Shown here piece by piece: positions 27,801 through 51,800 of a stretch of DNA of 64,000 bases (position 1 is its first letter; every line of letters starts with the position of its first letter). Source of the DNA: Nemertoderma westbladi (taxonomy: Eukaryota; Animalia; Xenacoelomorpha); NCBI GenBank assembly GCA_032718475.1, contig JAUCBJ010004774.1:1-64000 (forward strand). Reading direction: 5' to 3'. The position numbers and the translations under genes are program-made. The notes under the pieces are model-generated. The model did not search any database and had not been told where the DNA came from. It saw only the letters and a list, made by a program, of their open reading frames with translations.

Positions 27801-30800
27801 AAAATGAAATAAAATAAGTCACTACTTTAATATAATAATATGCATTAGTTCAATTTACCATCTAATGAAAGTATTCTTACCTTTACATATATTATAAACT
27901 ATTACAATAAATTCTTACACTTATCTGGAAACACAGGTCTACCTGTAAATAATATATGAGCCTAAATGTATATATAACTTTTGTTGGGCACAGCTTTGGC
28001 AAAGTCGGCAATGACGTCCAGGTGGGATCGAACTGGTGACCTCTGGGTTGGAAGTCTGAAACTCTAACCATTCAGCAAGCGGCTTGGGGTAAAAGGTTGA
28101 CCCGGAAATACCCCCTTGTATGGCAGACCTTGTATGTCCGCAATTAACCTCCTCATGGCCTCCCATCTGTCAATAACACCATATGCTGCCACTGTGCTCA
28201 ACCCTACAGTACTTGTATATAGATATACTCATACTCAAATCTAGTACCTGTATATAGATATACTCTCCAATCTTACGGCCACATCTTGGTCTGCTCTGGG
28301 ATAAATGAATTTGTTGACCACATGGACTACCCCATTACTCGCCTGCTGATCAAAGGTAACTATTGGCGACCCGCTGGCAGTAATGACATTTATATCGGTG
28401 TAAAGGTTTGTTCGTATTTTCTGCAGAAATATAACAAAACCTAATTATATATTCTTACAATTTATTATTAACTGTTTCGTATTAATGGAATAATTGTTAA
28501 AATCGTCTATCTAGAAATAAAGTGAAATGTTTATCCAACGGTAATCATCAAAAATGTTAATGTTTAATGACTCGCGGAGGCCACGAATATTATTTCTCCA
28601 CAAACATAAACCTCCCGTGATGTGAAAATACCAGGTTTTAAATTATTTGTTGAATTTTATTGCAATTTATTATGACGAATTTGTATTTTCTTAAACTTCT
28701 CTTTATGGATAGATAGATAGATAGATTTATTTATACATTATGTAAAAACAATAACAAATACACCAAACAATGTACCGGTATAAAGGTATTGTCCAACATA
28801 ACATATAGGATTACCCCTAAAGCTTTGCAGCTTATTTCCAAGGGGGTCCTTTATGTTACTTGGTTACAAATACAATATTACACTACGCTAACCTAAAACC
28901 AATATAAAACGTAATTACACTATGTACATGTACAACTTTACCGAGAGCGTGACAATGCCCGACTCAACGATAAAGATGTAATGTACAGAACAATTTATTA
29001 TAAAACGTAATTACAGTATAAATAGTAAATAATTAATAAACTAATAACTTACTGTAGGACTATTGTACCTATTTTTACATTGCACACGGAGATGAGATTT
29101 AACTGCAGATTTAAAAGAATGTTGATTATTTAGGTTTTTAATTTCATTAGGCAGAGCGTTCCAATTTTTTATGCCGTTAAAAAAGAAAGTATCAGATTCA
29201 AAGGATTTACAATTCGGGAGGTAGAAGTTTGAAGCACTAGCTCTGGTACTGTAAGAGTGTGTATCGCGTACTCTGTTGAATTTTTGTTTTAGGTAATTGG
29301 GACATTTACCATTATACACTTTATGCACATGGTTAAGGTGTAGCTGCTTAACTCTACTATCTAAGTTAAGTAGTCCAGATTCAGAAAAGTCATCTGGAGT
29401 TAGGTGGTGCCTAGGTTTGTAGTCTTTAATAAATCGTACTACTTTATTCTGAGCTACTTGTAATTTACATTTAAGCTGTTTGGTTAAGCCTTCATACCAA
29501 GAAGAGCACGCATAGTCCATGTGACACTGTATTAAAGAAGAGCAAAGTAACTTGCGGGAGTCGGTGTTCAAACTATTTTTATTTCTGTATAGAAACCTAA
29601 GCCTACTGTTAACTTTCGAGAAAATATTTTTCACTGTACTTTCTCCTGATAAGCAGTTATCCAATGTGGCGCCTAAATATTTAACTTCCTTTTTATTTTC
29701 AATCTTATGTCCATTACTAGTGACTTCAAACTTAGTTACCTTCTTTAACTTTCTTTTGGAACCAAACAAAATACTTTCAGTTTTACCGTAGTGAATGGAT
29801 AGCTTATTATCAACCAACCACTCATTACAGGATTCTAGAACTGCACTTAACTTTTGGGAAATATGGATAGGATCTTTATGAGAGAAAATAAGAGCACTGT
29901 CGTCGGCATATAAAATCAGTTTAAAATCGGGATCTATACTACTTATCATATCATTTACATAGCATACAAAAAGCAGAGGACCTAATATACTACCTTGCGG
30001 TACACCACAGGTAATCTCTTGTACAGTAGACAGCGATTTGCTAATGACTACAGTTTGACCTCTGTCTGACAGGTAGGACTTGAACCAGTCTATAGAACCT
30101 ACACCCATCAGGCCTAACTTACCAAGCAGAATTTCGTGATCTACAGTATCGAAAGCCTTTTGTAGGTCCAACATTACCATACCAGTATATAAACCCTTTG
30201 CGTTATTACATCTAATTGTATCAGTTAAGTTAATAAGGCAGGTGTCTGTAGAATATGATTTACGAAAACCGGACTGAAGTTCATAGATCAGATTTAGCCT
30301 ACTAAGATGTGCTTCCAGCTGTAGAAAAACAGAACGTTCTAGAATTTTAGATACAATACTTAAGATACTAACAGGTCTGTAATTACAGGGTTCTACTTTA
30401 CTATTCTTTTTATACAGAGGAACAACCTTAGCTAATTTCAGTTCGTCTGGTACTACATTATCTACGATAGAGTAATTAATAATAAAAGTAATAGGCACTT
30501 TAAGTACTTCAGCACCATCCTTAAGAAAACGGGCAGGTATTAGATCTAGACCGGTACTTTTTGAGGCTGATAGGCTAAGTAGATTTTTAAAAACGAAATC
30601 CTCAGAAACGGGTTTTAAAAATAACTTTTCTGAATTTTGTAACTTTTCTAAATAAAAATTTTTTAGAGTTTCGGACCCTATACTATATTTATTACTTGAT
30701 AACGGTAATTTCTTAACTAAATTAGAGGCAACATTAGTAAAATAATTATTAAATAAATTACTAACTAGAGTATGATCATGAATCAGCTCACCGTTATCTT

Positions 30801-33800
30801 GCAGAACAATATTCGATTTAGATTTAAGGTTTTTATAACCTAAAGATTTTAGGGTAGACCATAGACTTTTAGGATTATCTTTATTCTCACTTATTTTGTT
30901 GTACAAATATTCAGATTTAGCTTTTTTTATTTCCCGTTGGACAAGGTTTATAGCTCTTTATAGCTCATATTTCAGAAACTCTGATGTACTTGAGTTGGGA
31001 AATTCTAACGCTCTATATTGACATCGACACTTCCTTCACCGTCTGCTGATAGGTCTACGCTATACCTGTATATATATATATACATATCTGACACATGAAT
31101 CATATATACATAATTAACCCAAAAACACCACCAATATTATATTATGAATCATTTACAAAGGTCAGTTTATTCTCAATTAAATTGGGCTTCTTCCTAAAAT
31201 ATTTCCAACTCTGGTTTATTGTTTTGGTTCCTTTCAATGTAACCTGCTTCCTTACTAAACACAAAAATTACTAAAATTATATTTCATATAATATATTATA
31301 CACATACTACTTGACCATCGAGACTAGGAATCAGACCTTCGTCCTTAATGTCAGCCTTAACGATTTTCATTGTAGAGGCATGGAATGATAGCGTATCTTC
31401 TAATAATACAGGGTCGCCGGTTATAGCAGCTAGAAGATCCTGAAAGATCAAAACGATTTCAGAATTAATATGAACCGAGATAATTTTACTAAAAAAGACA
31501 GAAGAGTCTAACTAATTCAAACAGACTAACCTTGTTCATATTGGCTAGAGCGTCGTTGTTTGGTACAAATAAAGTGATTGTCTTGTCATTCTGCAGTTTC
31601 TGTTTTATTGTGGGACATTTGTCTAAAAGGCTCGCAAATTGTGGTCCCAATTTCACCGCCAGATCGTAAACGGTATTGGAGTCCTTGACGACGGATTTCG
31701 CCTCGACTAATTCAACCCATGGTACGACATCCGGTTGATTCTTCAACCCAAAGGTTGCAGCAACAAGGAGACACAGAACCAGTGCACTTATTTGCATAAC
31801 CATATTAGTGCTGAGGTGGTTGAACTTGTTTAATTAATTAATTTATAATAATTTAATATCACAATTTTAGTAAACGTACACTATTTAACCCTATTTTAGA
31901 GATACATTTTGCACTCTATAATCGTAGATTAAATCAACCTTTCTAAATTAATTACTGACTTCATACTTTACTAATGAAATAATCGTTTAGCTCTCTATCG
32001 GACGCATTTTGTATCAAATGAGAAATTGAAAACTGAAATTTATTATTTAATCAAATATGGATATTCAATATAAAATAAAAGAATAATATAATTATTACAA
32101 GAAGGTACTTTTGTTTAGATAAGTAAAATAGAGTTCAAACAATGGATGGTGTTTTCCCTGAGTAAATAAAACCACAGTTTAGATATCTCTCTCTCTGGTA
32201 CTTTTTATCCCACAATTCCCCAATCGATCTTTTCATATCAATGTTTACCAGTACAAAGTTAACCACACACTGCTAATCTTTAGCTTATAATTGCTATACA
32301 GTACTACGTCAGTTCTATAAATAAGTGTTACTATAGTATCTATTGGTGGGGTTTTGGTCAGAGGTCTGTATCAAATGTCAGTTTTAAACTTTAACCTGTA
32401 ATGTAACGGCTTGTAACGGCTTGTATACAGCTTGTTACGGTTGCTTTTAGTTCCAGTGCTTTATTCAATTTAGAGGGGGTCTCAAATTATATTTATCTCG
32501 TGCACCAAAACGCTTAATCTGGCCCTGTTCAGTTCAATAAGAACTGTATTAGGAATTAGGTTGCTGAACCTTAAGCTGTGGGTAACGAAAGTCTTATTAC
32601 AGTATTATTATACTACTGACTTAGTTGTAAGAGACAGGCTGACTTAGTGGTACGTCATAAAACTTGCAATAATAATTACTGATGTTTATCATTTTCAGAT
32701 GGATGCTGTTCTGACTGGAGCTACATTGTCTTCGGGAGAATTATTTGGCGAATCAGCTGTCAGTAGTCAAGCAATCAGAACGGACGCTGTATCTCAGGTT
32801 AGGGTAATTATTATATGGCGGATCAGCTGTCAGTAGAGTCAGCCAATCAGAACAGAGGCTGTATCTCAGGTTAGGGTAATTATTATATGGCGAATCAGCT
32901 GTCAGTAGTCAGCCAATCAGAACAGAGGCTGTATCTCAGGTTAGGGTAATTATTATATGGCGGATCAGCTGTCAGTAGAGTCAGCCAATCAGAACAGAGG
33001 CTGTATCTCAGGTTAGGGTAATTATTATATGGCGAATCAGCTGTCAGTAGTCAGCCAATCAGAACAGAGGCTGTATCTCAGGTTAGGGTAATTATTATAT
33101 GGCGGATCAGCTGTCAGTAGAGTCAGCCAATCAGAACAGAGGCTGTATCTCAGGTTAGGGTAATTATTATATGGCGAATCAGCTGTCAGTAGTCAGCCAA
33201 ACAGAACAGAGGCTGTATCTCAGGTAAGGGTAATTATTATATGGATGTAAACGCTACGCCGACAGCCGACAACCACTGCCATCAACAGCAAATATGAAAA
33301 TGTAACCTGAGTTCGTGACTCTCGCTTATTGTTTTGGTTAGAATAACCTTCCACTGTAACCTGTTCCTTTCCTTCAATTAATAAATAACATTAATTAGCT
33401 TTAATAATGGTTGTCGGCGTTGGTTGTCAGTAGTCGGTTGTCGGCGTAGCGTTTACACCCTTATTATATGGCGAATCAGCTGTCAGTTATAAAGTAAACA
33501 GAATCGAGGTTGTATCCTGTATCTTAGGATAGGCTAATTATTATAGGGCGAATCAGCTGCCAGTAGGCAGCCAATCAGAACAGAGGCCTACATACCAGTG
33601 TGAACTTCCATTACCACAACTGTTTTTGAAAATGAAACTTTTTAATATTGGTTTGTGGGGCGAGACACGTAGTCGGCGAGCCTTGGCATACGGTTCATAT
33701 AGGGCAAATGGGGCATGTCCGTCTGTCTGTCTGTCTGTCCGTCCGTCTGTCTGGTAAATGTTTGAACGCGAATTTCTCGGCATCGCTCGTTCGGAATTGA

Positions 33801-36800
33801 ACCAAACTTAGTAGGTAAGTAGTAGAGAGAAAGTTTAGAAAGTTTGTAAAGTTTGGTGAAAAATCATGCAGTCTGACGTCAGCTACGACAGATTATGTGG
33901 TTTTTAGAAAATGTTAAATTTCTCGGGAAGGCCTCATTTTCCTGAGCTGAAATTTTGGTGGCCTGTAGAGAATCATGAAGTCTATCTTTTACGAAATTGA
34001 AAAGTTAAGACATTTAATTGGGGATCCGCTAGAGACTCAGAAGTAATGACATAGGCCTACCGGTACGGTACTGCTGTACAGTGCTGCACTGGTAAGTACG
34101 AAATTGCAGAATAACAATTTGACACCACCTAGCGGATTAACATATGATTGTATATCGAATGAATACATTTATACTGTAGCATGGGATATTGGGTCCAAAC
34201 TAGACATACCCCATTTGCTCTATATGAACCGTATGCCAAGGCTTGCCGACTACGTGCTTCGCGAAGTCCCCACGAACGTGTTGTTTTATAGTGGTACTTT
34301 TATTTAATTGTCAAGCAATGAAGTAAAAACCTTACCGGTAGGTATGCAGTACAAATGAAACAGTAAAAAAGCAACTGACCTGTAGACGTTGCTGCCGTCT
34401 TGCCGTCTTGATGCTGTCTAACGCGTTCAATCAAGTGCTGGATGGTATGTCCAACATATTCCCCCTTACAAGAGGGACAAGAGAAAGAATAAACGACGTT
34501 AGACGCAAGAATATCTGGAACCGGATGTTTCAATGATGGTAGTGATTGGCGCAGTTTGGCAGTTGTGTAAACAAACCGCACTGGCCGTGTGCAAGACCTT
34601 GGTACTAGACCACGCAACCTACAAACAAAAAGTTCGGTGGCCCAACCGCGGTACTCAAACTTACAGATAATGGGCCTGGGATTTTCCGACGGTTCCGGCT
34701 CCACCGGGTCAATGACCTCGGTGGGTGTAACCGCAGTCACCTCGCTCTCACTACTATTGCCAGGACGCCCCCTAGCGGCACGGACGGCGGTAAGCTCACG
34801 CTGAATCATCGCATTTGTATATTGGTTATTGCTAAGAATAATATTAGCTTCCCCAATTGCAGTATTGAGCTGGGAGCCATCCCCGCCCTTACTGACGTTA
34901 AAAACGTTAAATTTGTTGTTTTAGTTGTTAAAATACAAGTAAATTTTATTTCTAGGATATTTTTGTTTAAGATCATCGGCATCAAATGAAAACATAAAAA
35001 TTTCACTTAGAATATATATAATTATTAGCGAATAATTATTTATTAATTTACAGCAATCTGTTGACCTTGGAGATTTTGCTTCTGTTGTTTGTATTAAAGA
35101 TTTTTCCACCTGTCGAGGTTTCGTTGTGATGTTTTGGTGTAAAATTGACGCAGGTCAGGGGACTACTTCAGATGCTTATTTTATCTCCAGCGGTAAGTCC
35201 ATTGTTATAGGCCTACAGTATTACAATAATAATGGCTTATTCATACGCTTGCACTTATTTCACGACACATTATTAGCCAACCACTGGCGGTGGTTGCAGG
35301 AAATAATTAACATTCAATTCACAAGTCCATCACACAAATATTTTTCTACACAAACATACAAGTAATATGTTTTCTTCCATTTTTTTTTATTAGGAATGCA
35401 ATTTTGTGGTACAAGTTTCTGCAATGGGACAATACAAATTGGACCGACAACCCCCCCCCCCCCACCCCCAAATTCACTACAAATCCGAATGAGATCCTCC
35501 CCCTCCCTAGTGGGTGAACCAAAATTTTTATTCTCTGTTTCATTCTTTAGCTTCAAGCGTTTGAAAAAGGTGTCTCCGACGATATTGTACCAGTTTCATT
35601 TGTTACGGGATTAACCTTAAGACACTTTATTACCTACAGAAACCAAATCTGAGGTGTTATGTCACATCAGATAAGGTATTAATCATTCATGCCTCACCCG
35701 GGCGCGGGGTCACGCTTCATTCATGTCTCAAGGCGTGGGGTCACATCGTCCACTTTTTACACCTACAGTAGGAATTGGGTTACACCTCATTACACAGCCT
35801 TACCTGGACGGGGGTCGCGCTTCATTCATTCATTTTCATTTATGTCTCTTTATTAAGTCTTAATTTATATCTCAGTATATTACAATATTATGTGTATAAT
35901 ATCGAGTCTATTCAAGCACTAATTTATAATATCATTTGCAATTATAATTATTTTATTAATGCAGTGAAAACGAGAATGCAAATGTGAAAGAATTGTACGA
36001 GCTGATAATATAAATCTTCAAATAATTTCCTATACATATCTCAGTATCACAATATTTTCAAAATTCTTTACTTATTTCAATCTTCTACTGTAGTCCATCA
36101 TACAAAATGTAATGGCAATTAGAACAACCCCCCTAACTCCCCCCCCCTCCCTTTGGCAGCAGCAATTACTAGCCTTGCTATCTGCAATGGTGCCTTCCCT
36201 CATTATCAACTAGTGTTATTACGCACAATATACTATACAGTAATTATACTTATACTTATAATATATAATATTTGTGCCTATTTATATTATATTAACTTGA
36301 TAATACTAAACGGGAAAATAAACAGTAAAACAGTAAATCAAAGTGGGAAAATCTGTTAGCACCCCGATTGTATGCCAAACCCCAAAGGTCAACTTACAAT
36401 CAGGGAGGCTGCTAAAGGAACCGAGAGAAAGCCGCCCCAATATTAGATTATTACAACAACATATCCATTGGGTAAGAAAGTGGAGGAGAGCCAGCCCGTC
36501 TCTTAATTTTTTACTTTATATTACGCGATCAATTTTCACTCATCTCGTCATGAACCCAACATGTATGTAAACTTTTGTTAAATTTGTTGGCTATGCGTTT
36601 GCGGTTGTTTGGGCGGAGTGTGGTAGGCCTACACTTTTCACACTTAAATATTTTGGTTGTGAAATGTTACAGGGCATAGCTATCTGAGATATTTCATTTA
36701 TATTTTATTATGAGAGTGTGACGGGATCCAGGAAGGATCCCGATTTATCCGGTTGTTTAATTCACTCGTCCCCGCCGTGTGCATGAAAGGTAAAAGGGAA

Positions 36801-39800
36801 TCCGTGTCGTTCGTTGTATATAATAACTGATATAGATATAGGGTATATAGATATAGGTGTACGGATAATGTTGTCGTATACAGAAGGCGGGATACGGTAA
36901 TTAAAGTCCCGGTCCTTCCCTAGCTAAACTAACTAACCTAAACTAGCACCAATATTACACTGAGATAACTGAACTGATATGATTACTGCCAAGTGGCTAT
37001 ATTGCACGGTTGGCCTTGTTACTCTACCTAACCGATGCCTTTCCCCCCTCTGATTGGTTGATACCCTTGTTGGCGCCCTTTGGAGTGTTTCCGTTCACTC
37101 CACCTGTTCTCTCTGGGTTAGGGGTTTGGCCCCTGACCCTCATTGTGTGTTTCCTTCCCATTTTGTTGGGGTGGCACGAGTTGGTTGATTACCCAATCTC
37201 GTGGCTCCCAATATTGCTTATCGGCTTAACTTTATGGGGTGTTAGCGGGATTGAATAAGCTAACACTCCCCCCCATGCTATCTTCCCGGTGAGAAGATAG
37301 CATCCACCTTAAGTGCGCTACAATCCCGCTGGATCCCGATCTAGTATCTGGTGTGGGGTGGAATTCTTTTCTCTCGGAGCCGGCTTTCCAGGCCGCTCCC
37401 TATGGGTATGATAACGCTACCCTGTATGCCTGGCATCTCATGTCGGGCCGATCGCGCTCACCTCTCACGCGACTTTTGTTTCCCCAACACTTTTGCCCTA
37501 TCTCTTCTCCACTCTCACCCTAACTCTCTCATACCCTCGGACCTCCTCGTCCCTCACTCAGCCTCTTATTCTCCCCCCCCCCACACACTAGAATTGCGTC
37601 CGCACTCTCTCCGCACTTCGCACTATTTGCTCTGTTCCTCAACCCCACTTCGATTGCCTCATCCCTTCTGACGAATCCCCCCCCCCCCCCCTCTTGTGCC
37701 GTCGCACTCAAGAAGCGTGAAATTGTCTGGTGTCTCGTCCATAGTGCCATAGTCAGTTATCCCCCCAGTCCCAGTAGCTAATTGAGAAAGGTTGTATGAC
37801 TATAGTACTTACTCCGAACGTATATTTGTAGATTACTAATTACTACGTACGTACATACAAATTGCACTTATATGATTATTTGCATTAATTAAATTTGTAC
37901 TTAATAGTTCGTACGTCCCACGCGGCGCCTTCCAGGCGTACCACGTCCAAGTCTCAGTTTCTCTCCCTCGGCTCTGGGAACCTATCTGTTCCTCTGGGCA
38001 TAGTTCCCCCTGGCGTCCTCTTCCCTGGGTCGTTTCTTGGTTACCACCGCTCCTCTGGGATCCGCTTTCTGCTTTCGGACCTTCGCCGCCACCTCCCTGC
38101 TGATTCCGGCTGTTGGCTCCTTGGGCGCTGGTGTTATTAATGCCCGATATCGCTTCGCCGGTGGCCCCTCAGAGTGGCCCTGTTGTCTCCCTCTGGTGGC
38201 GTCCCATAGGATCATCTTCATGGCTTGCGGTACGTGCTCCGCCAAGAAATCCCTAAACTCCCCTCGGTTCTGTGGCGTCCACCTGTCCAAATATCTTTGT
38301 GTATTCATCACTCCGGCATACGACGCCGCTGTTGCTACCTCTTGATAGGTAAAGGGTAGCCTCCGCTTTATGATTTCCATGTGAGCCTCCTGATTGATAA
38401 GGAAGAAACCCCACTTGAACTCCTGGGCCTTCATGCGCTGGCGCGTCATGGCCCCGACGTCGGCCCACTCCTCGAATCTCCTGAACTTCTCTTCGTCGTC
38501 CATCCAGTCGCACTGGCGTCCGTAGTGTCCCCGAAAGTGGCACTTTGGACATCGGTTATGCAGTCGTGGACACGCCCCCATCCTGTGGCTTGGTTCTCGG
38601 CAGTAGAGACAAAAGGTTCCCTTTTGGAACTGGTACAGGCAGCTCCTTTCCTGGTGGGTCTGTCTCCCACAGTAGTCGCAACCGAGTACCAATGTCTCCC
38701 GCCCCATGTCGTCTCTCGTCCCAAGCGATCTCCGCGGTCTGTGGAGTCGCTGGTAGGCGAATTTCTCCACGTTGGTGTCCCTGTCTACGTCGATCTCTCC
38801 GCCCCTCTCGGGCATTGTCTCCCCGAATACTATCCGTGGTGCCGTCCCCGGTTGCTCGCCCAACCTGATAGTGCTCCCCGCGAAATCCATCGCCGGCTCC
38901 TCGTGCACCCAGGTCCGCTTGCCGGATCTGTTCCAGAAGGCCCTCGCCCCACTGGCCGTCACCACCCTTCCGCCAACCCAGTCCGTGTCCGAGTGGCCTA
39001 TCCTCTCGATGGGCGGCATCTCTCCGAACTCGTCGTCGTCCTCCTCCTCCTCTGGCAGTGGCTCCAACCCCGGTATCCCGATGGATCCACTATGTCCCTT
39101 CCCGCCTTGGCTCTCGCCCGTAGCTCTCCATCCCTCTAACTCCCTTAACTTCCTTGGCGGTTGGTCGCCTTCGGCGCCCGCTGGTATGGGCATCGCTTGC
39201 AACCCCGACGTCGACTGTTTCGGTGATCCCACTGTCCATCCCAGTTCTCGCCCTAGAGACTCCCCCGAACTCCCTGACGAAGTCCAATGAAGCTCGTCTA
39301 AGCCCGCCTGTTCCTCGAAGCCGTAACTCTGCGTCCTGGCCTCCTCTTCCCTCTCCTCTGCTTCTATCCTCTCCTGTCTAGCGACTTCTTCCAGTCGCTT
39401 TGCTTCTCGTCTATCCGTTTCTAGCTGCTCCCATCTCTGATACGGCGTATCTGTCTCCCCGTCTACCAGATGCCGGCTGTTGTAGTACACCGACTCGCCC
39501 TTCAGCCCCGGGTGGTCTACCAGACCGTCGAAGGCCATTTTAAAGGCTCTCCTGTAGCTTAGGGGTGATCCCGATAACAGAAATGCCCCTGGTTCCCTCT
39601 CGATAACCACGGTCATAAATAAGTTAAGCAAACTTATCATCATCCAATCTTCCTGCAGGATATATCGCTTCTGATATACCTTTATCGCTCCTCTGCGGAA
39701 TTGATATACCTCTTGCTTTCCCGGTCTCGCTCCCCACTTTATCGAGTTCGCTAGTTCTGCTCCGTATTCTTCCCTGAACTTCCCCCAGTCCATCGGTTTG

Positions 39801-42800
39801 TGGCACACGAGCCCCAATAGTTGGCCCATTGCCACCGCCCCGCATTGGCCTGTGTTTTCGACTACCCCCAACCCATCCGGTGCCGTCATAGCCATAAAGA
39901 CCTTCTGCATATCCAGGAGGTTGGTGGCGTCCGGACCGATGATTCTCTCCGCATCCTCACGAATCGCCGATCCCACTTTCGTCGTCGACTTCTCTCTTAC
40001 CAAGACTTGTACCGCTTTCGGTAACTGGTTTAATTTCGGCCCGTCCATCTTCCCATACGTTCCTAGATCGAATAAGAAGATGTCCCCATTTGGCGCGGCC
40101 AAATGTAGGAGTATGGTCCTGGCCGACCCCGCCGTTCCTCGTCTCGAACCCGCCTCGTCTTCCACGGTTCCCTCGTCGTCTAGGATCATATATCCTCCTC
40201 TGTTGACGGACTCTATGAATCTCTTCCAGTCCTTCCTCGGTGATTCCCTCGGGTACTTCGGAATCCCGAATTTCGCCTCGTCCCCTTTCACCACGTAGTG
40301 GAAGTGTTGGAAATTCGCGTTGTCCAGCGACGGCGTCCCGTAGGTCCCGACCAGCCGCTGTTCGTGCATCTCCCGGAAGTGATCCTGCAGCGCTCGTGCC
40401 GCGTGACCCCTTTCCAACCTCTCGTAGTATCCTCTCGTCTTCTCTTCCGGATGCCTCTCGGTGAAATCCACCAGTATCTCCTTTCCTCCTGATTCCGCCT
40501 TTCTCTTTCTGATCAACTTGCTCGCCATTCCGAACACTCACTCGCTCACCTGCAAGGTGGTGCCTTACCAAGGCGCAATACAGATGAGTGATGTATCTAG
40601 GATGTTCTGTACCGTCCGATAATGGCCTATTTCTTACTTAACTGCGCCTTTTAACCTAAATTATTACTAATTAATTTTGAAGCTAGTAAATGAGCGTAAT
40701 TTACAATTTCTGTCCGTTACTTTTATTATGTTCTAGAATAACTTTCCTTGTGTTGCCATTATTTGTAACTTTCAGCCCTTTTCTTATTTATTTTTAATTT
40801 AATTTTAATTCCACTGTCCTACTACTTACTATTGCCTATGGATTGTTCTATTCTCTAATCCACATTTTGGCCTACACTGTGGGCCTGTGCAGTACAGCAG
40901 TATGCGTCGTGTGGCCACACGATTTACCCAGCTGTACTCATATGCCCCCCTCTCGCTACTAACTGCTAACTATATCTATATCTTATATACCCTTTTACCT
41001 CTAACTCTAACTCTTCTCTAACTAACGGTACTACGTACCCTCTAACTCTCTAATTAACGGTACTACATACCCTCTAACTCTTCTCTAACTAACGGTACTA
41101 CGTACCCTCTAACTCTCTAACTAACGGTACCATGTACCCTCTAACTCTTCTCTAACTAACGGTACTGCGTACCCTCTAACTCTCTAACTAACGGTACTAC
41201 TTACCCTCTAACTCTTCTCTAACTAACGGTACTACGTACCCTCTAACTCTCTAACTGACGGTACTACGTACCCTCTAACTCTCTACTTAACTAGCGGTAC
41301 TACGTACCCTCTAACTCTCTAACTAACGGTACTACGTACCCTCTAACTCTCTACTTAACTAGCGGCACAACGTACCCTCTAACTCTTCTCTAACTAACGG
41401 TACTGCATACCCTCTAACTCTCTAACTAACGGTACTACGTACCCTCTAACACTTCTCTAACTAACGGTACTACGTACCCTCTAACTCCTCTCTAACTAAC
41501 GGTACTACGTACCTCCTAACTAACTAACTAACTCTAGGTACTACGTACCTCCTAACTAACTGACTCTAGGTACTACGTACCTTCTTACTGACTAACTAAC
41601 TCTAGGTACTACGTACCTTCTTACTGACTAACTTTTGCCTACTAACTGCGTACCTACTATGTACTATTATTTTATTTTTATTTTCTGTTTTTATCTATTT
41701 TTATGTGTGGGAAGGGCGTCTCGCCCTCAATCCCACCCCCCTCAGTCCAAAGCTTGGACGACTAAACTCATGACAGACTCCACTAAGGTGCCCCTTCAGC
41801 AGACAGCATTTTCCCACAGCTCTCCTGTAGGTTTTTCTGTCCTTCGCACCTATCTTACCACCTATCCGCACTTCTACCGACCGGACTCTTCCGTCCTCGT
41901 CGGAGTAAGTTCCTACAACTCTTGCCAACCGCCACTGGTTGTTGATGATAGTATCATCCGTAACGATTACGAGATCTCCCTCTCTTAACTCCCTATTTGG
42001 CTTCCTCCACTTACTCCTTTTATGGAGTATGGGTAGGTATTCCTCGACCCACCTCCTCCAATACTCTGCGCTTATTGCTTTAGCGACTTTCCAACTTTGG
42101 CGGGAGTGTATGTCATCTGGGTCTACACCCCGCATATCGATGGTCGCTGGCCTTTCCATCAGGAAATGGCTAGGCGTCAGCACGTCTAATGACTCAGGGT
42201 CATCATTCTCCGGGTATAGCGGTCTGCTATTAATGATCCCCTCGCACTTCGCAAGCACTGTCCGTAAGACGTCCTCAGTGACCATGTGGGTGTTCATTAG
42301 CTTCGTCATTAGACGCTTAGAACTGCCCACCAGTCTCTCGACGCATCCTAGTGTATGTGGTGCATACGGCGTCCTTCTCTCCCACTTTACTTGTCGTCGT
42401 CTCATGGCTGCCCTGACTTCTTCTCCTTCCAAGATGTCCAAGGCGTCTGCCATCTCATTCTCTGCGCCCACAAAGTTGGTGCCGTTGTCGCTGTATATCA
42501 CTGCGATCGTCCCACCTTTGCGGTCCCTAAACCTTTCTAAGGCATTAATGAATGCTGATGTGGTTGCATCTTGGGCGAGTTCTATCCCTACCGCCCGCGT
42601 GTTGTTACATACGAAGATGATACCGTAGCGTTTCTCCGTGTGCCGCATCACCTTTATCTTTATCGGCCCGAACATGTCCACACCGCAATGCGTAAATGGC
42701 GGGTCGTGCTGTCTTACTCTATTCGCTGGTAGTGGCGCCATCTCTTGTATGGCTCGCTCCTTCTTCGCTCGTCGGCAGGTCTGGCACTGCCCCACCGCCG

Positions 42801-45800
42801 CTTTTACCTTCTTCCTCAACTGTTTGACCCAAAAGGTCCTCCTTATCTCCGTGAGGGTTCGGTTGGTGCCCCCGTGCAATATTGACTTATGGGAGTCCCA
42901 GATAATCTGGTGGACTATTGGCGATCCTGTGGGAATGATGATGGGTTTCGGTGGTATGACTATGCTGTTGTTGTATCCCACCCTAGAATTCATTACTAGA
43001 ATCCCGTCGTCATTAAGTTGTGGCGACAGCGTGATCAGCTCGCTGTCCCGTCGAAGGTGCTGTTGGTTACCGACGCATTCCACCTCGTCGCCATAGTTCT
43101 TCCGTTGTTCATAGCGGATGACTGCCTTGGCCGCTCCTTCCAGATCTATGGTTGTCCTGATCTTCTTGTCCTTGCCAACTCCCGCGAGGAAATTCCCGAA
43201 GGCTCTCCAGTATGCCACTAGTTTCTTGGTCTTATACCAACTAGAACTGTAGCTGAGGAGTTTATCCGTCGGGTTATCGCACAGTTCTCGTTTTGGTTGC
43301 ACATCCCTAATCTCCCTCACCATCTGGGAGTATATCTCTTCTCCCTCTGAATCTCCTTCTTCTCCCTCTGACACTACTTCTGAGCCCGGGTCCACCTTTC
43401 TCATCGGCGGCCAGGCCTCCTTATCGCTCAGAAATTGTGGCCCATGTTGCCACAATACTTCCTTCTTCAAGAAAGTGTGGCGTACTACGCCCCTCGACAA
43501 CAAGTCCGCTGGGTTCTCGTCCGTTGGGCAGTAGTGCCACCTTTCCAGTTCTGTGCTCGCCCTTATTTCGTCCACTCTATTTGCGACGAATATTGGGTAT
43601 CTCGTCCTTTCGTTATGTAGCCAACCAAGCACTACCATGGAATCCGTCCAGTAGTGTGTCTCCACTATGTTGGGAATAGTATCCACTAGGTAGGCTGTGG
43701 CTCTAACTCCTAGTCTCGCAGCTGTCAATTCTAATTTGGGAACTGATGCTGAATCTGGCGGCGTTGACTTTGCTTTGCTAAAGGCTAGTCTGGGCTTATG
43801 AGCCCCCTCTCGTTGTACTAAGTAGAGTGCCGCTCCGTACGCCTCCAACGACGCATCGGAGAACATGTGTAGGTCCAGGTTCGTCATGTTCCCATCCGGG
43901 AAATACACTCGTGGCATGTTGTATGTTCCCATCTTCTCCAAGTCTCCTGTCCATTTACTCCATTGTTTCTTGATTTCCTCTGGTACCTCTACGTCCCACT
44001 CATCCTTCAATTTGTATACTCTCTTGAGTATCTGTTTCCCCATAACTAATAATGGGGATGCTAGGCCTAGGGGATCGTATATCCTTGCTATATACGATAC
44101 ATAGCCCCTCTTCGTGTGGATGTCTGCGCCCTCCTGGCTCAGCTGATACTTCAGTTCGTCTGTCTCTCTGTTCCACACGATTCCCAATGCCTTCTGTTGA
44201 GATACTGTTCTTTTAATCGCCATGTCCTGCCCTTTGGCTGTTGTGGGATTATCCATGGTCGATTCTGGCCTCTTGTCCTCTATCGCCTTGATAAATTCTT
44301 CCGAACTGGATTGGAATTTGGTCAGGTTAAAGCCGGATCCTTTCAGGATGTCGCGAACCTCGCGCCCCGTGTCCAGTATCTCCTTAACCGTATTTCCAGA
44401 CTCCATTCCGTCGTCTACGTAGAAGCCACGTCGAATCATATCGACGGCCCTAGTGCTGTATCTATCTTCCTTCCCCTTCACTGTGTCTCTGACTGCCATA
44501 GTCGTCGTAAATGAAGACGACTTGGCTCCCATGTTTTGAACTACCATCTTATATGCTGGCATTATCGACGGTTCTTCCTCGCCGTTATACCATAAGAAGC
44601 GCTGACTGTCGCTATCTTCCTCCGTTACACGGACTTGGTTGAACATGCCTTCTATGTCACACGTGAAGGCGTGTTTCCCATTCCTAAATCTAAGTAGGAC
44701 CTCTATGCCCGAATTGTATATGTCTGGGCCTTCTAACAGGTAGTCGTTTAAGCATTTTCCGTCAGTCTTTGCCGATGCGTCGACTACCATCCGTAGTTTA
44801 CCTTTCTTTGGGTCTAAAGCCACGTGGAGTGGCAGGTAATATGTCCTGTCCGTGTTCGGCTCGTCGACCGGTAACTCCACGGCCCATCCTTTCTCGACGT
44901 ACTTCTTAATCGTTCTGTGGATGTACTCGTTCTTCTCGGGGCTCCGTTTTAGTGTTTGTTTCAGCTTGCGGAGTCTCGTGAGTACCATCCCTCTATTATC
45001 GGGCAGTGGTATCTTCGGTAGTTTCCATACCATTCCTATAGTATACCGCCCCTCACTGCATGTCATCGATTCCTCCACGCTTTGTAAAGCCTGCTTGTCT
45101 TCTACCGAGGTCCCGACCCCGGTCTCTTTTAGTCCCTCGAAATCTTGCCTGAGCAGTCTTTTGAGCTGCTCCTCTGCTCCCTCATCACCCATTTCCTGCA
45201 TTGTTCCCGCGAACATGCATCCTGATGTCTCCGACATCCTAAATGGTATCTTACTCTTGATTGGGCCACTCAGCGTCCACCCGAATGGTGTTAATATCGC
45301 CACCGGGTCACACTGCTTGTCTTCGCCGAAGACCGTTTGCATTCTTTCGTTGGCCATTGGGCAATCCATTCCTACTATGATGGATACCTTCCTAACGTCC
45401 ACGTCTGGGATTGAGAAGTCAATGTCGTCCAGGAATTTATATTGCTCGACCTCGATGTTGGTTGGCCGCCTGGCATTGATATTAATTGACTCTATCACTT
45501 GGATGGGGTCGATGGTTGCCCCATAGTCGCATCCCGGTGCCACTGCTGCAATTGCGCACCGTCCTGTTCTCATCTCCAGGATCTCATCTTTGCTAGAGAT
45601 GGTTGTCACCACCATTCTGCTTGGCCTCGTTCTCAATCCTATCTCTTCGGCCACCCATTCCTCGACTAATGTGAAGGCAGCTCCACTATCAACCAGCATT
45701 AGTGTTGTTACTGATCGATTGCCTTCCCCAATCACTCGCACGGGTACTACTCCAAGTAACACCGTTCCTCTCTTCTTCGCCCCTACTGTGCTCATCGCCA

Positions 45801-48800
45801 TCATCTGGCCTCTCCTCTGACCAAACTTTACCGGCTTCTCCTTGCACTCCCTTGCTCTATGTCCACTCATTACACATCGCGAGCAGATTTTGTTGCTCAA
45901 CGCATAATCTATCTGATCCTGCCTAGGTAGCGCCTGCCAGTACCTGCAGTTCATGGTTTGATGAAGCGCATTTGCGTGTAGCTGGCATTTGCTCTTTGGG
46001 TCGTAGCCCTCTTTATACAGTGCATTGCGTATCGCAGCTGCGTTTGTACCAAAGTCCCTACTATTCTTATTGTTTGAATTCGGCCTACTGGACGTACTGG
46101 GGTTATATTTATTCGTGTTGTTATTGTTCCCCTGTCCATTCCATGGTGTTGTCTTATCTTTGGCTAGCTGTGGACTTGCAGTCCCCTGCGTCGCTGCATA
46201 TGGCAATGATTGCCTGAGTCTCGGTAATGCGTTTGATGTATTGCGCTCTGGTTTCGGTCTATGGTAATCCGTCTTCGGTCCCTTTCCCAGGCTATCTTCG
46301 CTATAGACTGGGTCAGTTATTAGTTCAGCCTCGTAGTTTAAGAAGCTTGACATTTCTTCTAAACCCGGTTCCACACCCTTCTTGTCTCGAGTGGAGAAGG
46401 CGATCTTCCTCCACTCGTTGCGCAGCCAATTTGGTAGTGCCTGTGCTATCGTGGTGATGTTATTGGACGCGTTGAGCTCGTATGGCGCGTCTATCGTCTT
46501 CAGCACGATTAGCGCCTTTTCGACTTTGTTAGCGAACGTCTTAATGCTAACGGGATTATCCTGTAGGCCACCCGATGTTATGCCTCTCAGTGTCTGTCTG
46601 ATGATCTTGGCCGGGTGCCCGTATTCCCTATCCAGTGCCCGCCATGCTGTCGTGAAGCCGCCCTCTATTCCTTGATATTGCCTCACGATGTCGTATGCTG
46701 GGCCTCCCGTGTATACTTGCAGATACTTTAGGCACTCCGCCTGCGTCAAGTTTTTTGTAAGTATTTCGTTACTATACATGCGCCGAAACTGTAGATATTC
46801 TTCCGGCCTACTCCCATCGAATTTGAATGGTTCCACGGGTGGTAACTCGATCCTCGTTTTCAACGCATCGATCAACGTGGCCATCCCCATCGCCTGCACT
46901 TCCAATGGGTTCGATGGATGCTGTATAGTTTCTCCTGTCTGGTGCGGTTCGTCCGTCCTATTTCTTGATCTTCTTTGACTTGGGTATGTCATTGGGGGTA
47001 GCGGCCCCCTCCATATCTCTGTGTCACACGACCTATTTTCATCCAAGGGTCTCGTTGTTCTCGCTCCTATCGGGGTATATTGTTGATATTGTGATGGGGG
47101 AATGTCACCCTGCCCCCCCCCCCCCCCCCCACCGGTATGTTTGGTACTGGGGTTGATGTTAATATGTTGGGGCCCATACACCTATCCGCAATAATTCCCC
47201 CCTCCCCTGGGTATATGTTATGTCCCTGCATGCTGTAGTCATACTGCTGTACTGGTACCGGTATAGGCCTATCAACTTCTGGCCTACTCGTCGGTATGTA
47301 TTCCGCGACTTCCGGGTTTAATCCCGTTGTCCGCGCTATCCTATCCCCTACATTGCCTCTCTCAGTATGGCCTATGGTATGTGCAGTAAGGCCTACAGTA
47401 TGTCCTACAGTCTGCGTGTGTTGCTCGGGATCGAAGTTTATTCTTCTCGAATAATCCTCCCCGCGGCTACTGTATTCTCGATCGGTAGGTACATTCCGTC
47501 GGAAAGTTTCTCTTCGACCTCCCTCTCTACTATTCTCGTCTTCGTACCGGTACATCGCGTATCCCTCCATCGGCGCATAATGCACCTCACCAGGTCGCAT
47601 CTCTCCGGGGCGACGGCAATCTCCCGGAGTCCGACCCCACTGACTCTCCGTTCTCATCTCGACTACCGACGGCTCGCTATCCGTCCTCGCTCTTCTATCG
47701 TTTGCGGCGATACTTCTACTACTGTCTTCTCTTCCTCTCCCTCCAGTGTAGTATTCCCGCTCGTGAGATCTCTCGTCGACCTCCCGGTTAAACCCCACTG
47801 TTCTTCTTCCCTCTTCTGATCGGGCTCGACGCTTCGTCCGCCCTCTCACGACGTCAACCTGTCTCTCTCTGCTCGGTCGCACGCCACTGGGGATACTCAC
47901 AATCCCCCTATTACTGTCCGTCGCCGGGTGTTGCGGTTTACCTATTTCGGCCCGCGCATTATCCGCTGATGGCTGTGGAGCACTCCCTGCCCCCCCCCCT
48001 TTCGCCGCTAACTCGCTGTTGTGGGGCCCCTGTAGCCCCCCCCCCCACTCACCACATCTAACTTCGCTATCCCTCACCCCGCTACTATATCCCTCTTTAG
48101 TCGACACATCTACCCTACCGCGGTAGGGTCTATTCACCCCCGCCTCTCCCTCTGCTATTGCGTGGCCTACCAGGCCCTCTACTCCCTGCCTACCAACTAC
48201 GTGGCCTACCAGGCCCTCACTGGGTCTACCCAACCCAGCCGCTCCCTGCCCACCAACTACGTGGCCTACCAGGCCCTCTCTGGGTTGGCTCAATCCCGCC
48301 ACTTCCGACCTACCAATTGTACGGCCTACCAGGCCCCCGTCTGCCTGGCCATACATGCCCGACGTGTTCATGTTAATAGCACCCATATTGGAAACGGAAT
48401 TAATTTGTCCGTTTGAAACAAAATCATTTGAATTATTTTGTAAATTCGGACTTGGATCATTATTTAAATTATTTGAATTATTTTGCACGTTCAAATTGAA
48501 ATTATTATTTGTACTTAAATTTAAATTACTGCTACTAGGTAAAGTATTATTTGCTGCAATAAAGGTTTGGTTAGAGTTATCCCATACGGTACTATTAATA
48601 TTAACGACGTCTACTATAGCATTATTATCACCCCCCCCCCCCCCGCCCGTACGGTCACACCAGTCTTGGGTCTGTCGTGCGGTCCCTGTAAGTGGGGTAT
48701 TAATAAATGTATCCACGGCCCCTGGCTCCTCGAAAATACTCGAGCTAGCCCCACTCTCAGACGCCCCTACTCGCGCCAATTCCCGTTCGCGCGTATGTAC

Positions 48801-51800
48801 AGCTTTGTACCCTGTAAGCTCACCTTGACGTTTCTCTAGTTCCTTTTGCTCACCCTCCTTCCTTGCCATTCTCTCCTTACACTCCCGTGCGTCCCGTTCG
48901 GCCAATTCCAATTCTCTTCTAGCCCCCTCCCTTCGTCTCGCCTCACGCTCTCTGCGTTCGTTTTCCTTTCTCTCCTCGCGCTCTCTGCACTCGTTTTCCT
49001 CTTTCGCCTCACGCTCTTCGCGCTCATTTTTCTCCCTCACCTCGCGTTCCCTGTGTTCCGCCTCACGCTCTTTGCGCTCAATTTTCTCTCTCGCCTCGCG
49101 CTCTTCTTGTTCCTTCCTCCCTACTTCCTCACACTCCCTAAGGCTTCTCGCGGCCCTTTCGGCCCTCTCCCCGGTTTCCTTAATCAACGCCATTTCCCTC
49201 TCTAGCAGCACTCTCCCCTCCTCTAACCGTCTGCCTACTTCCCTTTGACCTTGCTCTATTAAATTGAGACGGTACGCGGCATTTATATCTCCCACCCGTC
49301 TTTCTTTCACGGAGGATGTAGCAGACTTATCGGTTGTAACGGATTCCCTCCGCCTCCCCTTCCTACTAACCTTCCCCCGCCTCCCGGAACTTCCTCCGAC
49401 CGACGAGGCTGAATCCTCGGGGTTAACCTCGGATTCGTCCTCCTCGGGTCTCTCCCAACCCACTAATTTTACTCCCCGGGCATCGACTAAGTACGGCCCT
49501 ACGTACACTACGCTAGGTTCTATACCCCCATACCGCCATAAGTCATACAGTTCCTCGGCAACCCCTCTCGCTCTCTCCTCGGCCAGTCCTCTTTGCCCGA
49601 AGCGCATTAGATAATAAAAGTGTCTATTCGACTCACCTAGTCTTCTCTTTAGTTTTACCTTGTCTATCGTCGCCCCTCCTCTGGCCTCCTCTAATAGTCT
49701 CCGGGTCGCGTTGTAGGCCCGTCGAAGTCGATCAGAAACCCCGACATCCTCGTCGCCGACCTCTCGTCCGTCTCTCCGGGTCCGGCGTCGTACCGTCGGC
49801 CCCGCCGTCGCCGTTTCGGTGGGCCACTCGTCGCTCTCGGCCTGTGGCTGGCCGGCGACATCGGTACCGACATCTCCTCCGTCTCTTCGGGTCCGGCGTC
49901 GTACCGTCGGCCCCACCGTCGCCGTTTCAGTGGGCCGCTCGTCGCCCTCGGCCTGTGGCTGGCCGGCGACATCGGTACGTCGACCCACGTCTCGTGTCGA
50001 CTCGTCTCCGTCTCCCTCCGTCTCGCTCTCTCCTTCTCTTGGCTCGACCTCGGGTTCCAGGCGGCCCCTCTCATCCTGGACTGCCGGATGACCCGTTACC
50101 GATGGGTCCGGCGTTGTGGGCCTGTACCGCCTGGTTGCGGCCTCGCGGATCGTTAATTCTTCGTCCGGGGTCCGCGTCGGCGTTGTTTCTCCCGACTGGC
50201 TCATCTCGCTTGGTGATTGGTGGCTGGTGGTTTAGCTGGCTAGGGGAACAACTCGATTTAATTACTGTGACGGGATCCAGGAAGGATCCCGATTTATCCG
50301 GTTGTTTAATTCACTCGTCCCCGCCGTGTGCATGAAAGGTAAAAGGGAATCCGTGTCGTTCGTTGTATATAATAACTGATATAGATATAGGGTATATAGA
50401 TATAGGTGTACGGATAATGTTGTCGTATACAGAAGGCGGGATACGGTAATTAAAGTCCCGGTCCTTCCCTAGCTAAACTAACTAACCTAAACTAGCACCA
50501 ATATTACACTGAGATAACTGGACTGATATGATTACTGCCAAGTGGCTATATTGCACGGTTGGCCTTGTTACTCTACCTAACCGATGCCTTTCCCCCCTCT
50601 GATTGGTTGATACCCTTGTTGGCGCCCTTTGGAGTGTTTCCGTTCACTCCACCTGTTCTCTCTGGGTTAGGGGTTTGGCCCCTGACCCTCATTGTGTGTT
50701 TCCTTCCCATTTTGTTGGGGTGGCACGAGTTGGTTGATTACCCAATCTCGTGGCTCCCAATATTGCTTATCGGCTTAACTTTATGGGGTGTTAGCGGGAT
50801 TGAATAAGCTAACAGAGAGGAAGAAGAACATACAACGTTATTTACTATATATGTAACAAAATAATTGTTTTCGTGTTTAACTTGGAAGCCTCCCCAAATA
50901 GTTGATATACAATTATATTTAAAATTATTTCCATGGTCATGGTCATTCACCCGTCTTTAGTTAGAAATTTGTTTGCATGAAAGACAGTTTAGTTTAGTTT
51001 TTACTGATTTATCAGTCATATCATTATCAGTCATATCATTATCTCATATCTGACTGGGGTAATAATAAAGGATAGGATAAATGGAAGCAAAGTGTGACAG
51101 TAACAAATATTTCCCCGTCACCCTAGCATGTCTTAAGTATATGATATATCAAAGTGGGAAGTTTGGATTCACTGCATAAATGCAGTTCACCAAACTTCCC
51201 CCGAATGCACACTGTAACTTCCCCCTTCCCACAAATATCCACTGTTGAATTAATTTGAAGCGATATAATAAGTACAAAATTGTGCGAGTTTTTAATTGTG
51301 TGGTCCAATTGTTATTTGATTTCTATTTATTATTTAAAGTGCATTTAATATCACACTGGTTTTTAGAATATTATACTATACAACCTTATGTTTTATTAAT
51401 TTACCAAATCGAAGCCTCATAAGGGCCGGTTATTTGTACACATATCCCCTAATGCGCTCAGTAAGGTTCAAACAACATATTGAACCAAGGTGGACGGTTA
51501 GATGGCCGCGCAAACTATCTGTGTACTAAAATGTTAAACCTATATAATATATCTGAAAAAAGTTTTTGTCTGAATGCCAAGACGTGAGGCGGCCTACAGC
51601 CAGTAGTTATATATGCTGTAATTATAGCCGGCGCTTACCTTATCCAAATGGTTAATTTGTTTAAAATGATATTTATTCATTTTGGTTTAAATAATTACAT
51701 TGGTTTTGTGGACCATTTATTTTGTAGGTATTCTCCATTATATTTAGTGCTGTGTGATTTCTTGGGGAGACATTTTTTAAATTGGTGTCCCATAATTTTT

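What the first reader, a model, noticed from the sequence alone, without database searches (positions are those of the whole stretch)
37982..40537. BEL/Pao retrotransposon carries an intact exonuclease plus triple zinc-knuckle ORF where env would be
Seen: an uninterrupted ~850-aa ORF inside near-identical LTRs, on the same strand as pol. It has D120-x-E122, KVG..IRE-D195 and Y292...E296/D297 in the order and spacing of WRN/EXD/Mut-7-type DEDDy 3'-5' exonucleases. A coiled coil, an acidic disordered linker, three CX2CX4HX4C knuckles (~38510-38680) and NLS-like basic patches follow. There is no signal peptide or obvious TM anchor, so it is not env. Known: DEDDy nucleases (Mut-7/Nibbler, EXD1) act in small-RNA pathways, and DEDDy cargo ORFs have been described in bdelloid rotifer retroelements. 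I do not know this exonuclease+CCHC architecture from BEL/Pao. Inference: an element-encoded RNA-binding nuclease that trims or degrades piRNA/siRNA (counter-silencing) or processes primer/cDNA ends. ExoIII is atypical (YILQED rather than YAAxD), so catalytic activity is uncertain.
Basis: partly seen in the sequence, partly recalled or inferred. Interest (0 to 1): 0.9.

Follow-up and report, generated by a model that had tools for sequence, protein, structure and literature searches.

The report
Jumping gene carrying its own exonuclease
A recently inserted BEL/Pao jumping gene carries an extra, conserved gene that joins an exonuclease-shaped domain to three zinc fingers; dozens of relatives carry the same gene and some are predicted to make it as a tail on their integrase by reading through a stop codon, so it likely works inside the element's own replication particle, although its activity is untested.

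Summary
Observation confirmed and extended. ORF3 (848 aa from ATG 40528, minus strand) lies between pol and the 3' LTR of a 14.1-kb BEL/Pao element with 549-bp LTRs (1 mismatch) and a 5-bp target duplication. Its N-terminal domain is a DEDDy-type 3'-5' exonuclease fold: the family profile hits human EXD2 at E=6e-15, and the model matches Nibbler at Z about 15. The last catalytic Asp is Glu here. Copies in the host show purifying selection (26 of 36 variants synonymous). The gene is a family: 36 of 39 informative metagenome loci have it directly behind a BEL/Pao-type integrase, and integrase and exonuclease distances track each other (rho 0.82). One integrase clade keeps the gene but has lost the catalytic residues. 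In 11 of 44 relatives ORF3 follows pol in frame behind one TGA; six similar ones share a covarying stem-loop 9 nt downstream, a readthrough signature. The window copy is not of this type. Best reading: an old accessory nucleic-acid-binding protein of the element's own particle, trimming 3' ends where active (about 0.5); counter-silencing about 0.25. DEDDy ORF3s are known from rotifer Ty3/gypsy elements; I found no BEL/Pao report. New variant of a known kind.

The parts
50266..50814 (-). 5' LTR, 549 bp, TG...CA
   Evidence: blastn 549 bp, 1 mismatch to the 3' LTR; CTCTC directly outside
47067..50231 (-). ORF1, 1054 aa stop to stop, low-complexity N-terminal part of gag; overlaps the next frame around a G-run at 47108-47133
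   Evidence: no Pfam hit under E 0.4
41701..47181 (-). gag-pol frame, 1826 aa: DUF1759, knuckle, protease, RT, Pao RNase H region (Peptidase_A17), integrase, DUF5641; ends in TAA
   Evidence: Pfam
41005..41633 (.). 32/35-bp tandem repeat in the 1.17-kb spacer between pol and ORF3
40529..40600 (-). leader of ORF3 with a branch-point-like CTCAT, an acceptor-like TTGCAG/G and a strong ATG context (inferred splice acceptor, untested)
   Evidence: sequence; a frequent 1-nt insertion at 40538 in other copies lies upstream of the ATG
37982..40528 (-). ORF3, 848 aa
   Evidence: purifying selection
39596..40237 (-). DEDDy-type exonuclease domain core (aa 98-311); D117 40180-40178, E119 40174-40172, D192 39955-39953, Y289 39664-39662, E293 39652-39650
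39311..39445 (-). long charged helix, aa 362-406 (predicted)
38183..38695 (-). zinc module, aa 612-782: three CCHC knuckles (38680-38510) plus a conserved helical extension (FExxADxGxxTxxR...WGF)
37266..37276 (-). polypurine tract before the 3' LTR
   Evidence: sequence
36717..37265 (-). 3' LTR, followed by target-site duplication CTCTC

Best explanation
ORF3 is a conserved accessory gene of BEL/Pao retrotransposons that joins a DEDDy-type exonuclease fold to a triple zinc-knuckle module; the protein likely binds the element's own RNA or cDNA inside its replication particle and, where the catalytic residues survive, would trim 3' ends there. Shown: position inside the LTRs, fold, purifying selection, linkage to BEL/Pao pol in many relatives, co-divergence with integrase, loss of catalytic residues in one clade. 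Predicted: in some relatives the protein is made as a C-terminal extension of Pol by TGA readthrough, which would put it into the particle with RT and integrase in small amounts. Inferred: the window copy makes it as a free protein, probably from a spliced or internal transcript, and recruits it through the knuckles. Separate odds: real accessory gene 0.95; DEDDy fold 0.97; window protein catalytically active about 0.55; readthrough real in relatives about 0.8; site of action in the element's own particle or RNP about 0.5.
For: Family: 80 relatives at E up to 0.001; 35 of the 38 that are at least 450 aa carry both modules (the profiles were built from 35 of these 38, so this shows shared architecture, not an independent test). 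A profile built without the window row scores ORF3 aa 101-304 at 77 bits. Profile against the PDB: EXD2 E=5.8e-15 over the whole domain. Model from the 36-row alignment: pLDDT mostly 80-95 in both domains; best matches Nibbler Z 14.9 (rmsd 3.3, 203 aligned), NrnC, T. brucei RNase D, WRN, RRP6, Egalitarian. Selection: 26 of 36 frequent variants in 39620-40200 synonymous against 0.29 expected, no stop, no indel; 23 of 33 over the whole ORF. Context: 36 of 39 loci with at least 3.5 kb upstream have a same-strand integrase ahead of the knuckles; 10 of 11 pols checked have DUF5641 and 7 of 11 Peptidase_A17. Co-divergence: Mantel rho 0.82, p=0.0002, 31 rows. Readthrough: 11 of 44 loci in frame behind one stop, all TGA, 9 of 11 followed by C; 13 of the other 33 end in TGA. 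Stem-loop 9 nt after the stop with 10 of 14 pairs changed on both sides, 0 of 500 shuffles as high, matching Type II UGA-CGG cassettes with a 7-8 nt spacer and stem (PMC3159437, passages).
Against: No activity, expression or localisation data. The window element itself has no readthrough cassette: pol ends in TAA and a 1.17-kb spacer follows, and 33 of 44 relatives are not contiguous in frame, so particle delivery is inferred from a minority. Five loci with the TGA-C context have an interrupted or shifted frame (L002, L033, L037, L062, L066). Nine of the 11 in-frame loci lack the ExoI residues, so fusion and catalysis coincide only in L029 and L076. With all 15 cassette regions RNAalifold found no common structure, and the six-row structure came from rows I picked as similar. 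The window has Glu for the ExoIII Asp, as do only 6 of 77 non-redundant domains. A readthrough protein with a zinc finger can be a silencing suppressor (ilarvirus CP-RT, PMC11166343, abstract). Loci were found by the knuckle pattern, so the knuckles are constant by construction, and most come from a few assemblies.
Confidence: 0.52

Rival explanations
1. Counter-silencing factor: the protein binds and trims or degrades piRNA/siRNA or their precursors, and dead versions act as decoys against host Nibbler/Mut-7/EXD1-type factors.
For: Best structural match is Nibbler, with Exd1 in the list (rows within 1 Z are tied). The family is abundant in the host's sequencing runs (8562 and 5067 contigs laid; no copy number). 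Most relatives and the window encode it as a separate ORF. Ilarvirus CP-RT is a readthrough, zinc-finger-dependent weak suppressor (PMC11166343, abstract). PMC5408684 raises a silencing-related role for rotifer ORF3.
Against: A conserved low-level fusion to the integrase end in two parts of the tree fits a particle role better than a mass-action suppressor (inference). ORF3 co-diverges with its own pol and is under purifying selection; neither shows an arms-race pattern, although positive selection was not tested.
Confidence: 0.25
2. Non-catalytic RNA adaptor: the exonuclease fold serves as an RNA-binding surface, as in Egalitarian or EXD1, to route the element's RNA to germ cells or to assembly sites; catalysis is incidental.
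For: 32 of 77 non-redundant domains have lost ExoI residues yet keep the domain, including a whole 12-row integrase clade. Egalitarian structures bound to RNA localisation signals, one from the I-factor, are among the fold matches. L047 and L059 keep the zinc module without the exonuclease.
Against: 36 of 77 domains keep the full catalytic set across very low overall identity, which implies selected catalysis in many lineages. No motor-adaptor motif was tested.
Confidence: 0.15
3. Passive cargo: a captured host gene or chance ORF that rides along without function for the element.
For: No Pfam hit for the ORF alone. PMC5408684 found mostly neutral intragenomic variation in the rotifer env-like and GDSL-like ORF3s it resequenced.
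Against: Purifying selection, frame kept (1 in-frame indel among the 12 listed of 42; none), co-divergence with integrase, and the element's own base composition (GC3 0.68 against about 0.35 GC in flanks).
Confidence: 0.03

Closest known systems
DEDDy ORF3 of bdelloid rotifer LTR retrotransposons Juno and Vesta, shared with Athena/Terminon elements (PMC5408684, main text read; PMC6431247, passages)
   Same: RNase D-like DEDDy exonuclease ORF downstream of pol, where env would sit; function untested there too.
   Different: Those carriers are rotifer Juno/Vesta lineages (Ty3/gypsy-like, recalled), not BEL/Pao; the motif is DEED; the paper reports no triple-knuckle module, no coiled coil and no readthrough. 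Sequence relationship could not be tested.
Belpaoviridae (BEL/Pao) elements with an env-like third gene (PMC8742986, whole text)
   Same: LTR size, domain order, third gene between pol and the 3' LTR.
   Different: The third gene is a soluble nuclease-fold protein; the element is 14.1 kb against the 4.2-10 kb given for the family.
EXD2 / WRN-exo / Nibbler (Mut-7) / Egalitarian / EXD1 exonuclease domains
   Same: Fold and motif order; active and dead members exist in both groups.
   Different: 10-19% identity in the structural matches; element-borne; joined to a triple-knuckle module; ExoIII Glu in the window copy. The donor cannot be named from these data.
Trypanosoma brucei RNase D (PDB 7c42/7c45)
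   Same: Same architecture: DEDDy domain followed by CCHC knuckles; hit in both parts, Z 13-14.
   Different: A cellular kinetoplastid enzyme (role in guide-RNA tail trimming is recalled); the exonuclease part matches only at E 0.039; probably convergent.
Type II stop-codon readthrough cassettes (UGA-CGG/CUA plus 3' stem-loop; PMC3159437, passages)
   Same: In relatives: TGA, mostly +C, 9-nt spacer, covarying stem.
   Different: Predicted only; at a pol/ORF3 junction; absent from the window copy. Readthrough into an env-like ORF in soybean SIRE1 is recalled; that paper was not held.
Dada DNA transposons with a DEDDy domain inside the transposase (PMC3706591, passages)
   Same: A DEDDy domain in the same polypeptide as a DDE enzyme, proposed to process 3' ends during transposition.
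   Different: DNA transposon, domain inserted within the transposase, no knuckle triplet.

Membership tests
BEL/Pao (Belpaoviridae) | LTRs of 0.2-1.2 kb flanking gag-pol | tested here: met
   549-bp LTRs, TG...CA, 5-bp duplication
BEL/Pao (Belpaoviridae) | PR-RT-RH-IN order with Pao-type domains | tested here: met
   Peptidase_A17 5e-40, DUF5641, DUF1759; the 120 nearest pols listed all carry PF05380
BEL/Pao (Belpaoviridae) | Polypurine tract before the 3' LTR | tested here: met
   G-rich purine run directly before TG
BEL/Pao (Belpaoviridae) | tRNA-Arg or tRNA-Gly primer-binding site | tested here: inconclusive
   The sequence after the 5' LTR does not start with TGG; host tRNAs were not available
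DEDDy 3'-5' exonucleases | RNase D/DnaQ-like fold | tested here: met
   EXD2 E=5.8e-15 by family profile; Z 13-15, rmsd 2.8-4.0, about 180-210 aligned
DEDDy 3'-5' exonucleases | ExoI D-x-E, ExoII D, ExoIII Tyr | tested here: met
   D117, E119, D192, Y289 sit in the family's conserved columns
DEDDy 3'-5' exonucleases | ExoIII Asp four residues after Tyr | tested here: not met
   E293 in the window; Glu in 6 of 77 non-redundant domains, Asp with a full set in 36. So it has the DEDDy fold but is not a canonical DEDDy enzyme by motif
DEDDy 3'-5' exonucleases | Acidic residues cluster around two metals; 3'-5' activity | not testable with these tools
Bdelloid Juno/Vesta DEDDy ORF3 | Carried by Juno/Vesta or Athena elements, DEED motif | tested here: not met
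   Carrier is BEL/Pao; motif is D-E-D-E
Bdelloid Juno/Vesta DEDDy ORF3 | Sequence kinship to the rotifer ORF pool | not testable with these tools
   Those sequences are in Repbase and were not available
env-like ORF3 | Membrane anchor and glycoprotein fold | tested here: not met
   Hydropathy maximum 1.3; fold is an exonuclease
Type II readthrough cassette (relatives only) | In-frame UGA followed by C and a 3' stem-loop | tested here: met
   not present in the window copy
Type II readthrough cassette (relatives only) | Measured readthrough | not testable with these tools
   Needs a reporter assay or ribosome profiling

The most novel reading that the evidence does not exclude
A deep, so far uncatalogued branch of BEL/Pao elements packages its own 3'-5' exonuclease with RT and integrase, by Pol readthrough in some lineages and as a free ORF3 in others, and uses it to edit cDNA 3' ends during reverse transcription: a retroelement counterpart of a proofreading exonuclease, which may help sustain 10-14 kb genomes. 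One sub-lineage has since turned it into a pure RNA-binding adaptor.
Probability: 0.15. Interest if true: 0.92.

Novelty: new variant of a known kind. Interest (0 to 1): 0.7.

Why it matters
The role of exonuclease cargo in LTR retrotransposons has been open since the 2017 rotifer report. This family makes it testable: it offers natural active, Glu-variant, dead and exonuclease-less versions on one pol tree, and two predicted ways of expression. A readthrough fusion to the integrase end would be the first positional clue I found that such a nuclease travels in the particle. It also shows that the third gene of Belpaoviridae is not only env.

Tried and rejected
No whole genome is held, so copy number and the share of full-length copies with ORF3 were not measured. 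The word-index protein search found no ORF3 relative with aa 70-400 or with alignment A1, although an exhaustive search did; those blanks are a sensitivity limit. The single-sequence fold failed (pLDDT 31). No relative in viral contigs. The Atlas gave a 0.94 feature hit to a cluster with PF01612 on 34% of members (lead only); later Atlas requests did not complete. No RNA holder was listed; run X6 is only guessed to be RNA and holds scattered pieces, so nothing is said on expression. The zinc module was not folded alone, so whether its helical extension has a known fold is untested. RNAalifold on 15 cassette regions gave no consensus. The Fisher test printed used a miscounted cell (14 for 13) and is not used. 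A single origin of ORF3 is neither shown nor excluded: the 24 ORF3-bearing pols can form one side of a branch with support 72, unrooted, with the window on a long branch (53 of the 120 relatives included, whose own downstream DNA is unknown). L071 is a chance match inside a pyrophosphatase gene. No complex prediction was run. Earlier-findings look-ups by sequence, by the first word set and by place were empty.
Full report
OBSERVATION. The ORF is real and where stated: 40537-37982 on the minus strand, 848 aa from the first ATG at 40528. It lies inside a 14,098-bp element with 549-bp LTRs (50814-50266 and 37265-36717, one mismatch, TG...CA), a CTCTC target duplication and a polypurine tract, so this insertion is recent. 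The pol frame carries Peptidase_A17, DUF1759 and DUF5641 in PR-RT-RH-IN order; its nearest database relatives are BEL/Pao pols at 32-36% identity, the named ones from fish, echinoderms, a sea anemone and crustaceans. ORF3 has three CX2CX4HX4C knuckles and no membrane segment. On its own it hits nothing in Pfam.

FAMILY AND FOLD. An exhaustive phmmer search gave 80 relatives at E up to 0.001, found mainly through the knuckle region. Of the 38 that are at least 450 aa long, 35 also carry the N-terminal domain (the profiles came from these same proteins). Two relatives hit PF01612 just under its cut-off, among 42 scanned. The profile of a 36-row alignment hits human EXD2 at E=5.8e-15 over the whole domain, then T. 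brucei RNase D (both parts), Egalitarian and WRN. A profile without the window row still scores ORF3 aa 101-304 at 77 bits. The AlphaFold model from that alignment is confident over most of aa 70-345 and 620-770 and disordered at 409-610. It matches Nibbler (Z 14.9, rmsd 3.3, 203 aligned), NrnC, RNase D, WRN and RRP6, tied within about 1-2 Z. The fold is therefore DEDDy type, but no donor can be named.

ACTIVE SITE. D117, E119, D192 and Y289 fall in the conserved columns; the ExoIII acid is E293. Among 92 exonuclease domains, 83 cover ExoI and ExoIII and 77 remain after removing those over 90% identical: 36 canonical, 6 with Glu as in the window, 32 without ExoI, 3 otherwise changed. The window's Glu is thus a recurring natural variant; whether it is active is open.

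SELECTION. Contigs of four coded runs cover the ORF, densely in two. Of the 40 best-supported variant places listed (620 more not shown), 33 lie in the ORF and 23 are synonymous, against 0.31 expected (p=6e-6). In 39620-40200 all 36 places at 15% share or more were listed: 26 synonymous, 10 not, no stop, no indel, pN/pS about 0.16. The only variants listed in catalytic codons are silent (D192; E293). These are differences between this copy and others, not independent events.

GENOMIC CONTEXT OF RELATIVES. A degenerate pattern for knuckles 2-3 matched once in the window and never in 100 shuffles. Of these 80, 76 encode the zinc module; 46 of the 53 with at least 2 kb upstream have the exonuclease; 36 of the 39 with at least 3.5 kb upstream have a same-strand integrase ahead of it. 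Ten of 11 pols checked carry DUF5641 and 7 Peptidase_A17. Six contigs have terminal overlaps, as expected if a whole LTR-gag-pol-ORF3 unit collapsed into a circle (inference). Most loci come from a handful of assemblies, and host taxa are unknown.

CO-DIVERGENCE. For 31 elements with both parts, integrase and exonuclease tree distances correlate (Spearman 0.82, permutation p=0.0002); kin share history, so this shows joint inheritance, not co-adaptation. A 13-row integrase clade (support 99) keeps D-E-D-Y-D throughout. A 12-row clade (99) has lost it: 11 lack ExoI, and the twelfth is cut there but lacks the later residues. L047 and L059 keep only the zinc module. The window is a long branch in both trees. 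One origin is not excluded and not shown.

READTHROUGH IN RELATIVES. In 11 of 44 loci with both a pol end and ORF3, ORF3 continues pol's frame behind one stop, always TGA and followed by C in 9; 13 of the other 33 end in TGA. Five more loci of the dead clade have TGA-C but an interrupted frame. The 150 nt after the stop fold better than shuffles in 15 such loci (mean z -2.1) than in 15 others (-0.3; p=2e-4, rows not independent; 30 of the 44 used). Six similar ones share a stem-loop starting 9 nt after the stop, with 10 of 14 pairs changed on both sides and 0 of 500 shuffles as high (structure derived from the same rows). Most of nine others fold a stem at a similar distance, with z from -0.05 to -5.1, but all 15 together give no consensus. 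This is the anatomy of Type II readthrough (PMC3159437, passages). It occurs in a 10-row part of the dead clade and in the L029/L076 pair of the intact clade. The window copy differs: TAA, then a 1.17-kb spacer with a tandem repeat, and an acceptor-like sequence before a strong ATG, so a separate transcript is inferred.

MECHANISM. I commit to a role in the element's own particle or RNP (about 0.5). The knuckles resemble nucleocapsid and LIN28 knuckles and likely bind single-stranded nucleic acid. A readthrough tail on integrase would be packaged with Pol. Where the acids survive, the domain would trim 3' ends of RNA or cDNA; where they do not, it would act as a binding surface. Counter-silencing (0.25) and a transport-adaptor role (0.15) remain open. 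Against my reading: the window copy and most relatives are not fusions, fusion and intact catalysis coincide in only two loci, and a viral readthrough zinc-finger protein is a known silencing suppressor (PMC11166343, abstract).

WHAT IS KNOWN. DEDDy ORF3s are described for rotifer Juno and Vesta elements (PMC5408684, parts 1-3 of 5, the main text; PMC6431247, passages), and a DEDDy domain within Dada transposases (PMC3706591, passages). The ICTV profile lists only env as a third gene (PMC8742986, whole text). 'Exonuclease' does not occur in the main text of four surveys that cover BEL/Pao (PMC3118150, PMC8556966, PMC6238403, PMC8220671; passages) or of PMC12440569; their supplements were not read and could hold such ORFs unannotated. 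Full-text searches listed no BEL/Pao exonuclease paper; the phrase 'BEL Pao' matched no text, so those three are weak. Repbase, GyDB and Dfam could not be searched. Unchecked notes of this scan report RRP6-like or DEDDh ORF3s in several gypsy elements, which suggests exonuclease capture is recurrent and lowers the surprise of the general kind.

VERDICT. A real, selected, lineage-wide accessory gene; a new variant of a known kind. New here are the BEL/Pao carrier, the exonuclease-plus-triple-knuckle architecture, the active, dead and lost states on one tree, and the predicted Pol readthrough. Interest 0.7.

Noticed in passing
L007:1234, L034, L037:6645, L065:6736, L066, L068:5645 and nine more loci: Readthrough-type cassette at the pol stop (TGA, mostly +C, 9-nt spacer, stem-loop with a conserved CTCGGA stretch in many); worth a study of its own.
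   Followed up: yes
window 47067-47181: gag and pol sit in two overlapping frames that meet at a long G-run; many relatives have one continuous 2100-2400 aa frame. Could be a sequencing slip, a mutation or a programmed shift.
   Followed up: no
window 50236-50265: The sequence after the 5' LTR does not begin with TGG, so no usual primer-binding site; it begins with a donor-like GTAATT.
   Followed up: partly
L047:3341-6529, L059:6880-9648, L061:2-2425: ORF3 variants with the zinc module and long helical or acidic regions but no exonuclease hit.
   Followed up: partly
L005:40-4815, L051:5002-9657, L015:335-4318, L043:1226-5476: ORF3 frames of 1300-1600 aa with very long low-complexity N-terminal parts before the exonuclease.
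   Followed up: no
L008, L032, L072, L016; L010, L077, L079: Lower-GC members with His in place of the ExoIII Tyr (N-E-E-H-N and D-E-D-H-D sets), behind a very divergent BEL/Pao pol in L010 and L079.
   Followed up: partly
window 9608-25473: About 16 kb of a 29-bp satellite (532 matches of a 300-nt reference at 29-nt spacing).
   Followed up: no
window 29041-30957 and 55942-58740 (minus): A non-LTR reverse transcriptase ORF (RVT_1 3e-36) and a broken endonuclease-plus-RT LINE (class judged by eye, untested).
   Followed up: no
window 31489-31833 (minus), 59141-60028 and 60620-61009 (plus): Probable host exons: a fasciclin-like piece with a signal peptide and PKD-like pieces (motifs recalled, not scanned).
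   Followed up: no
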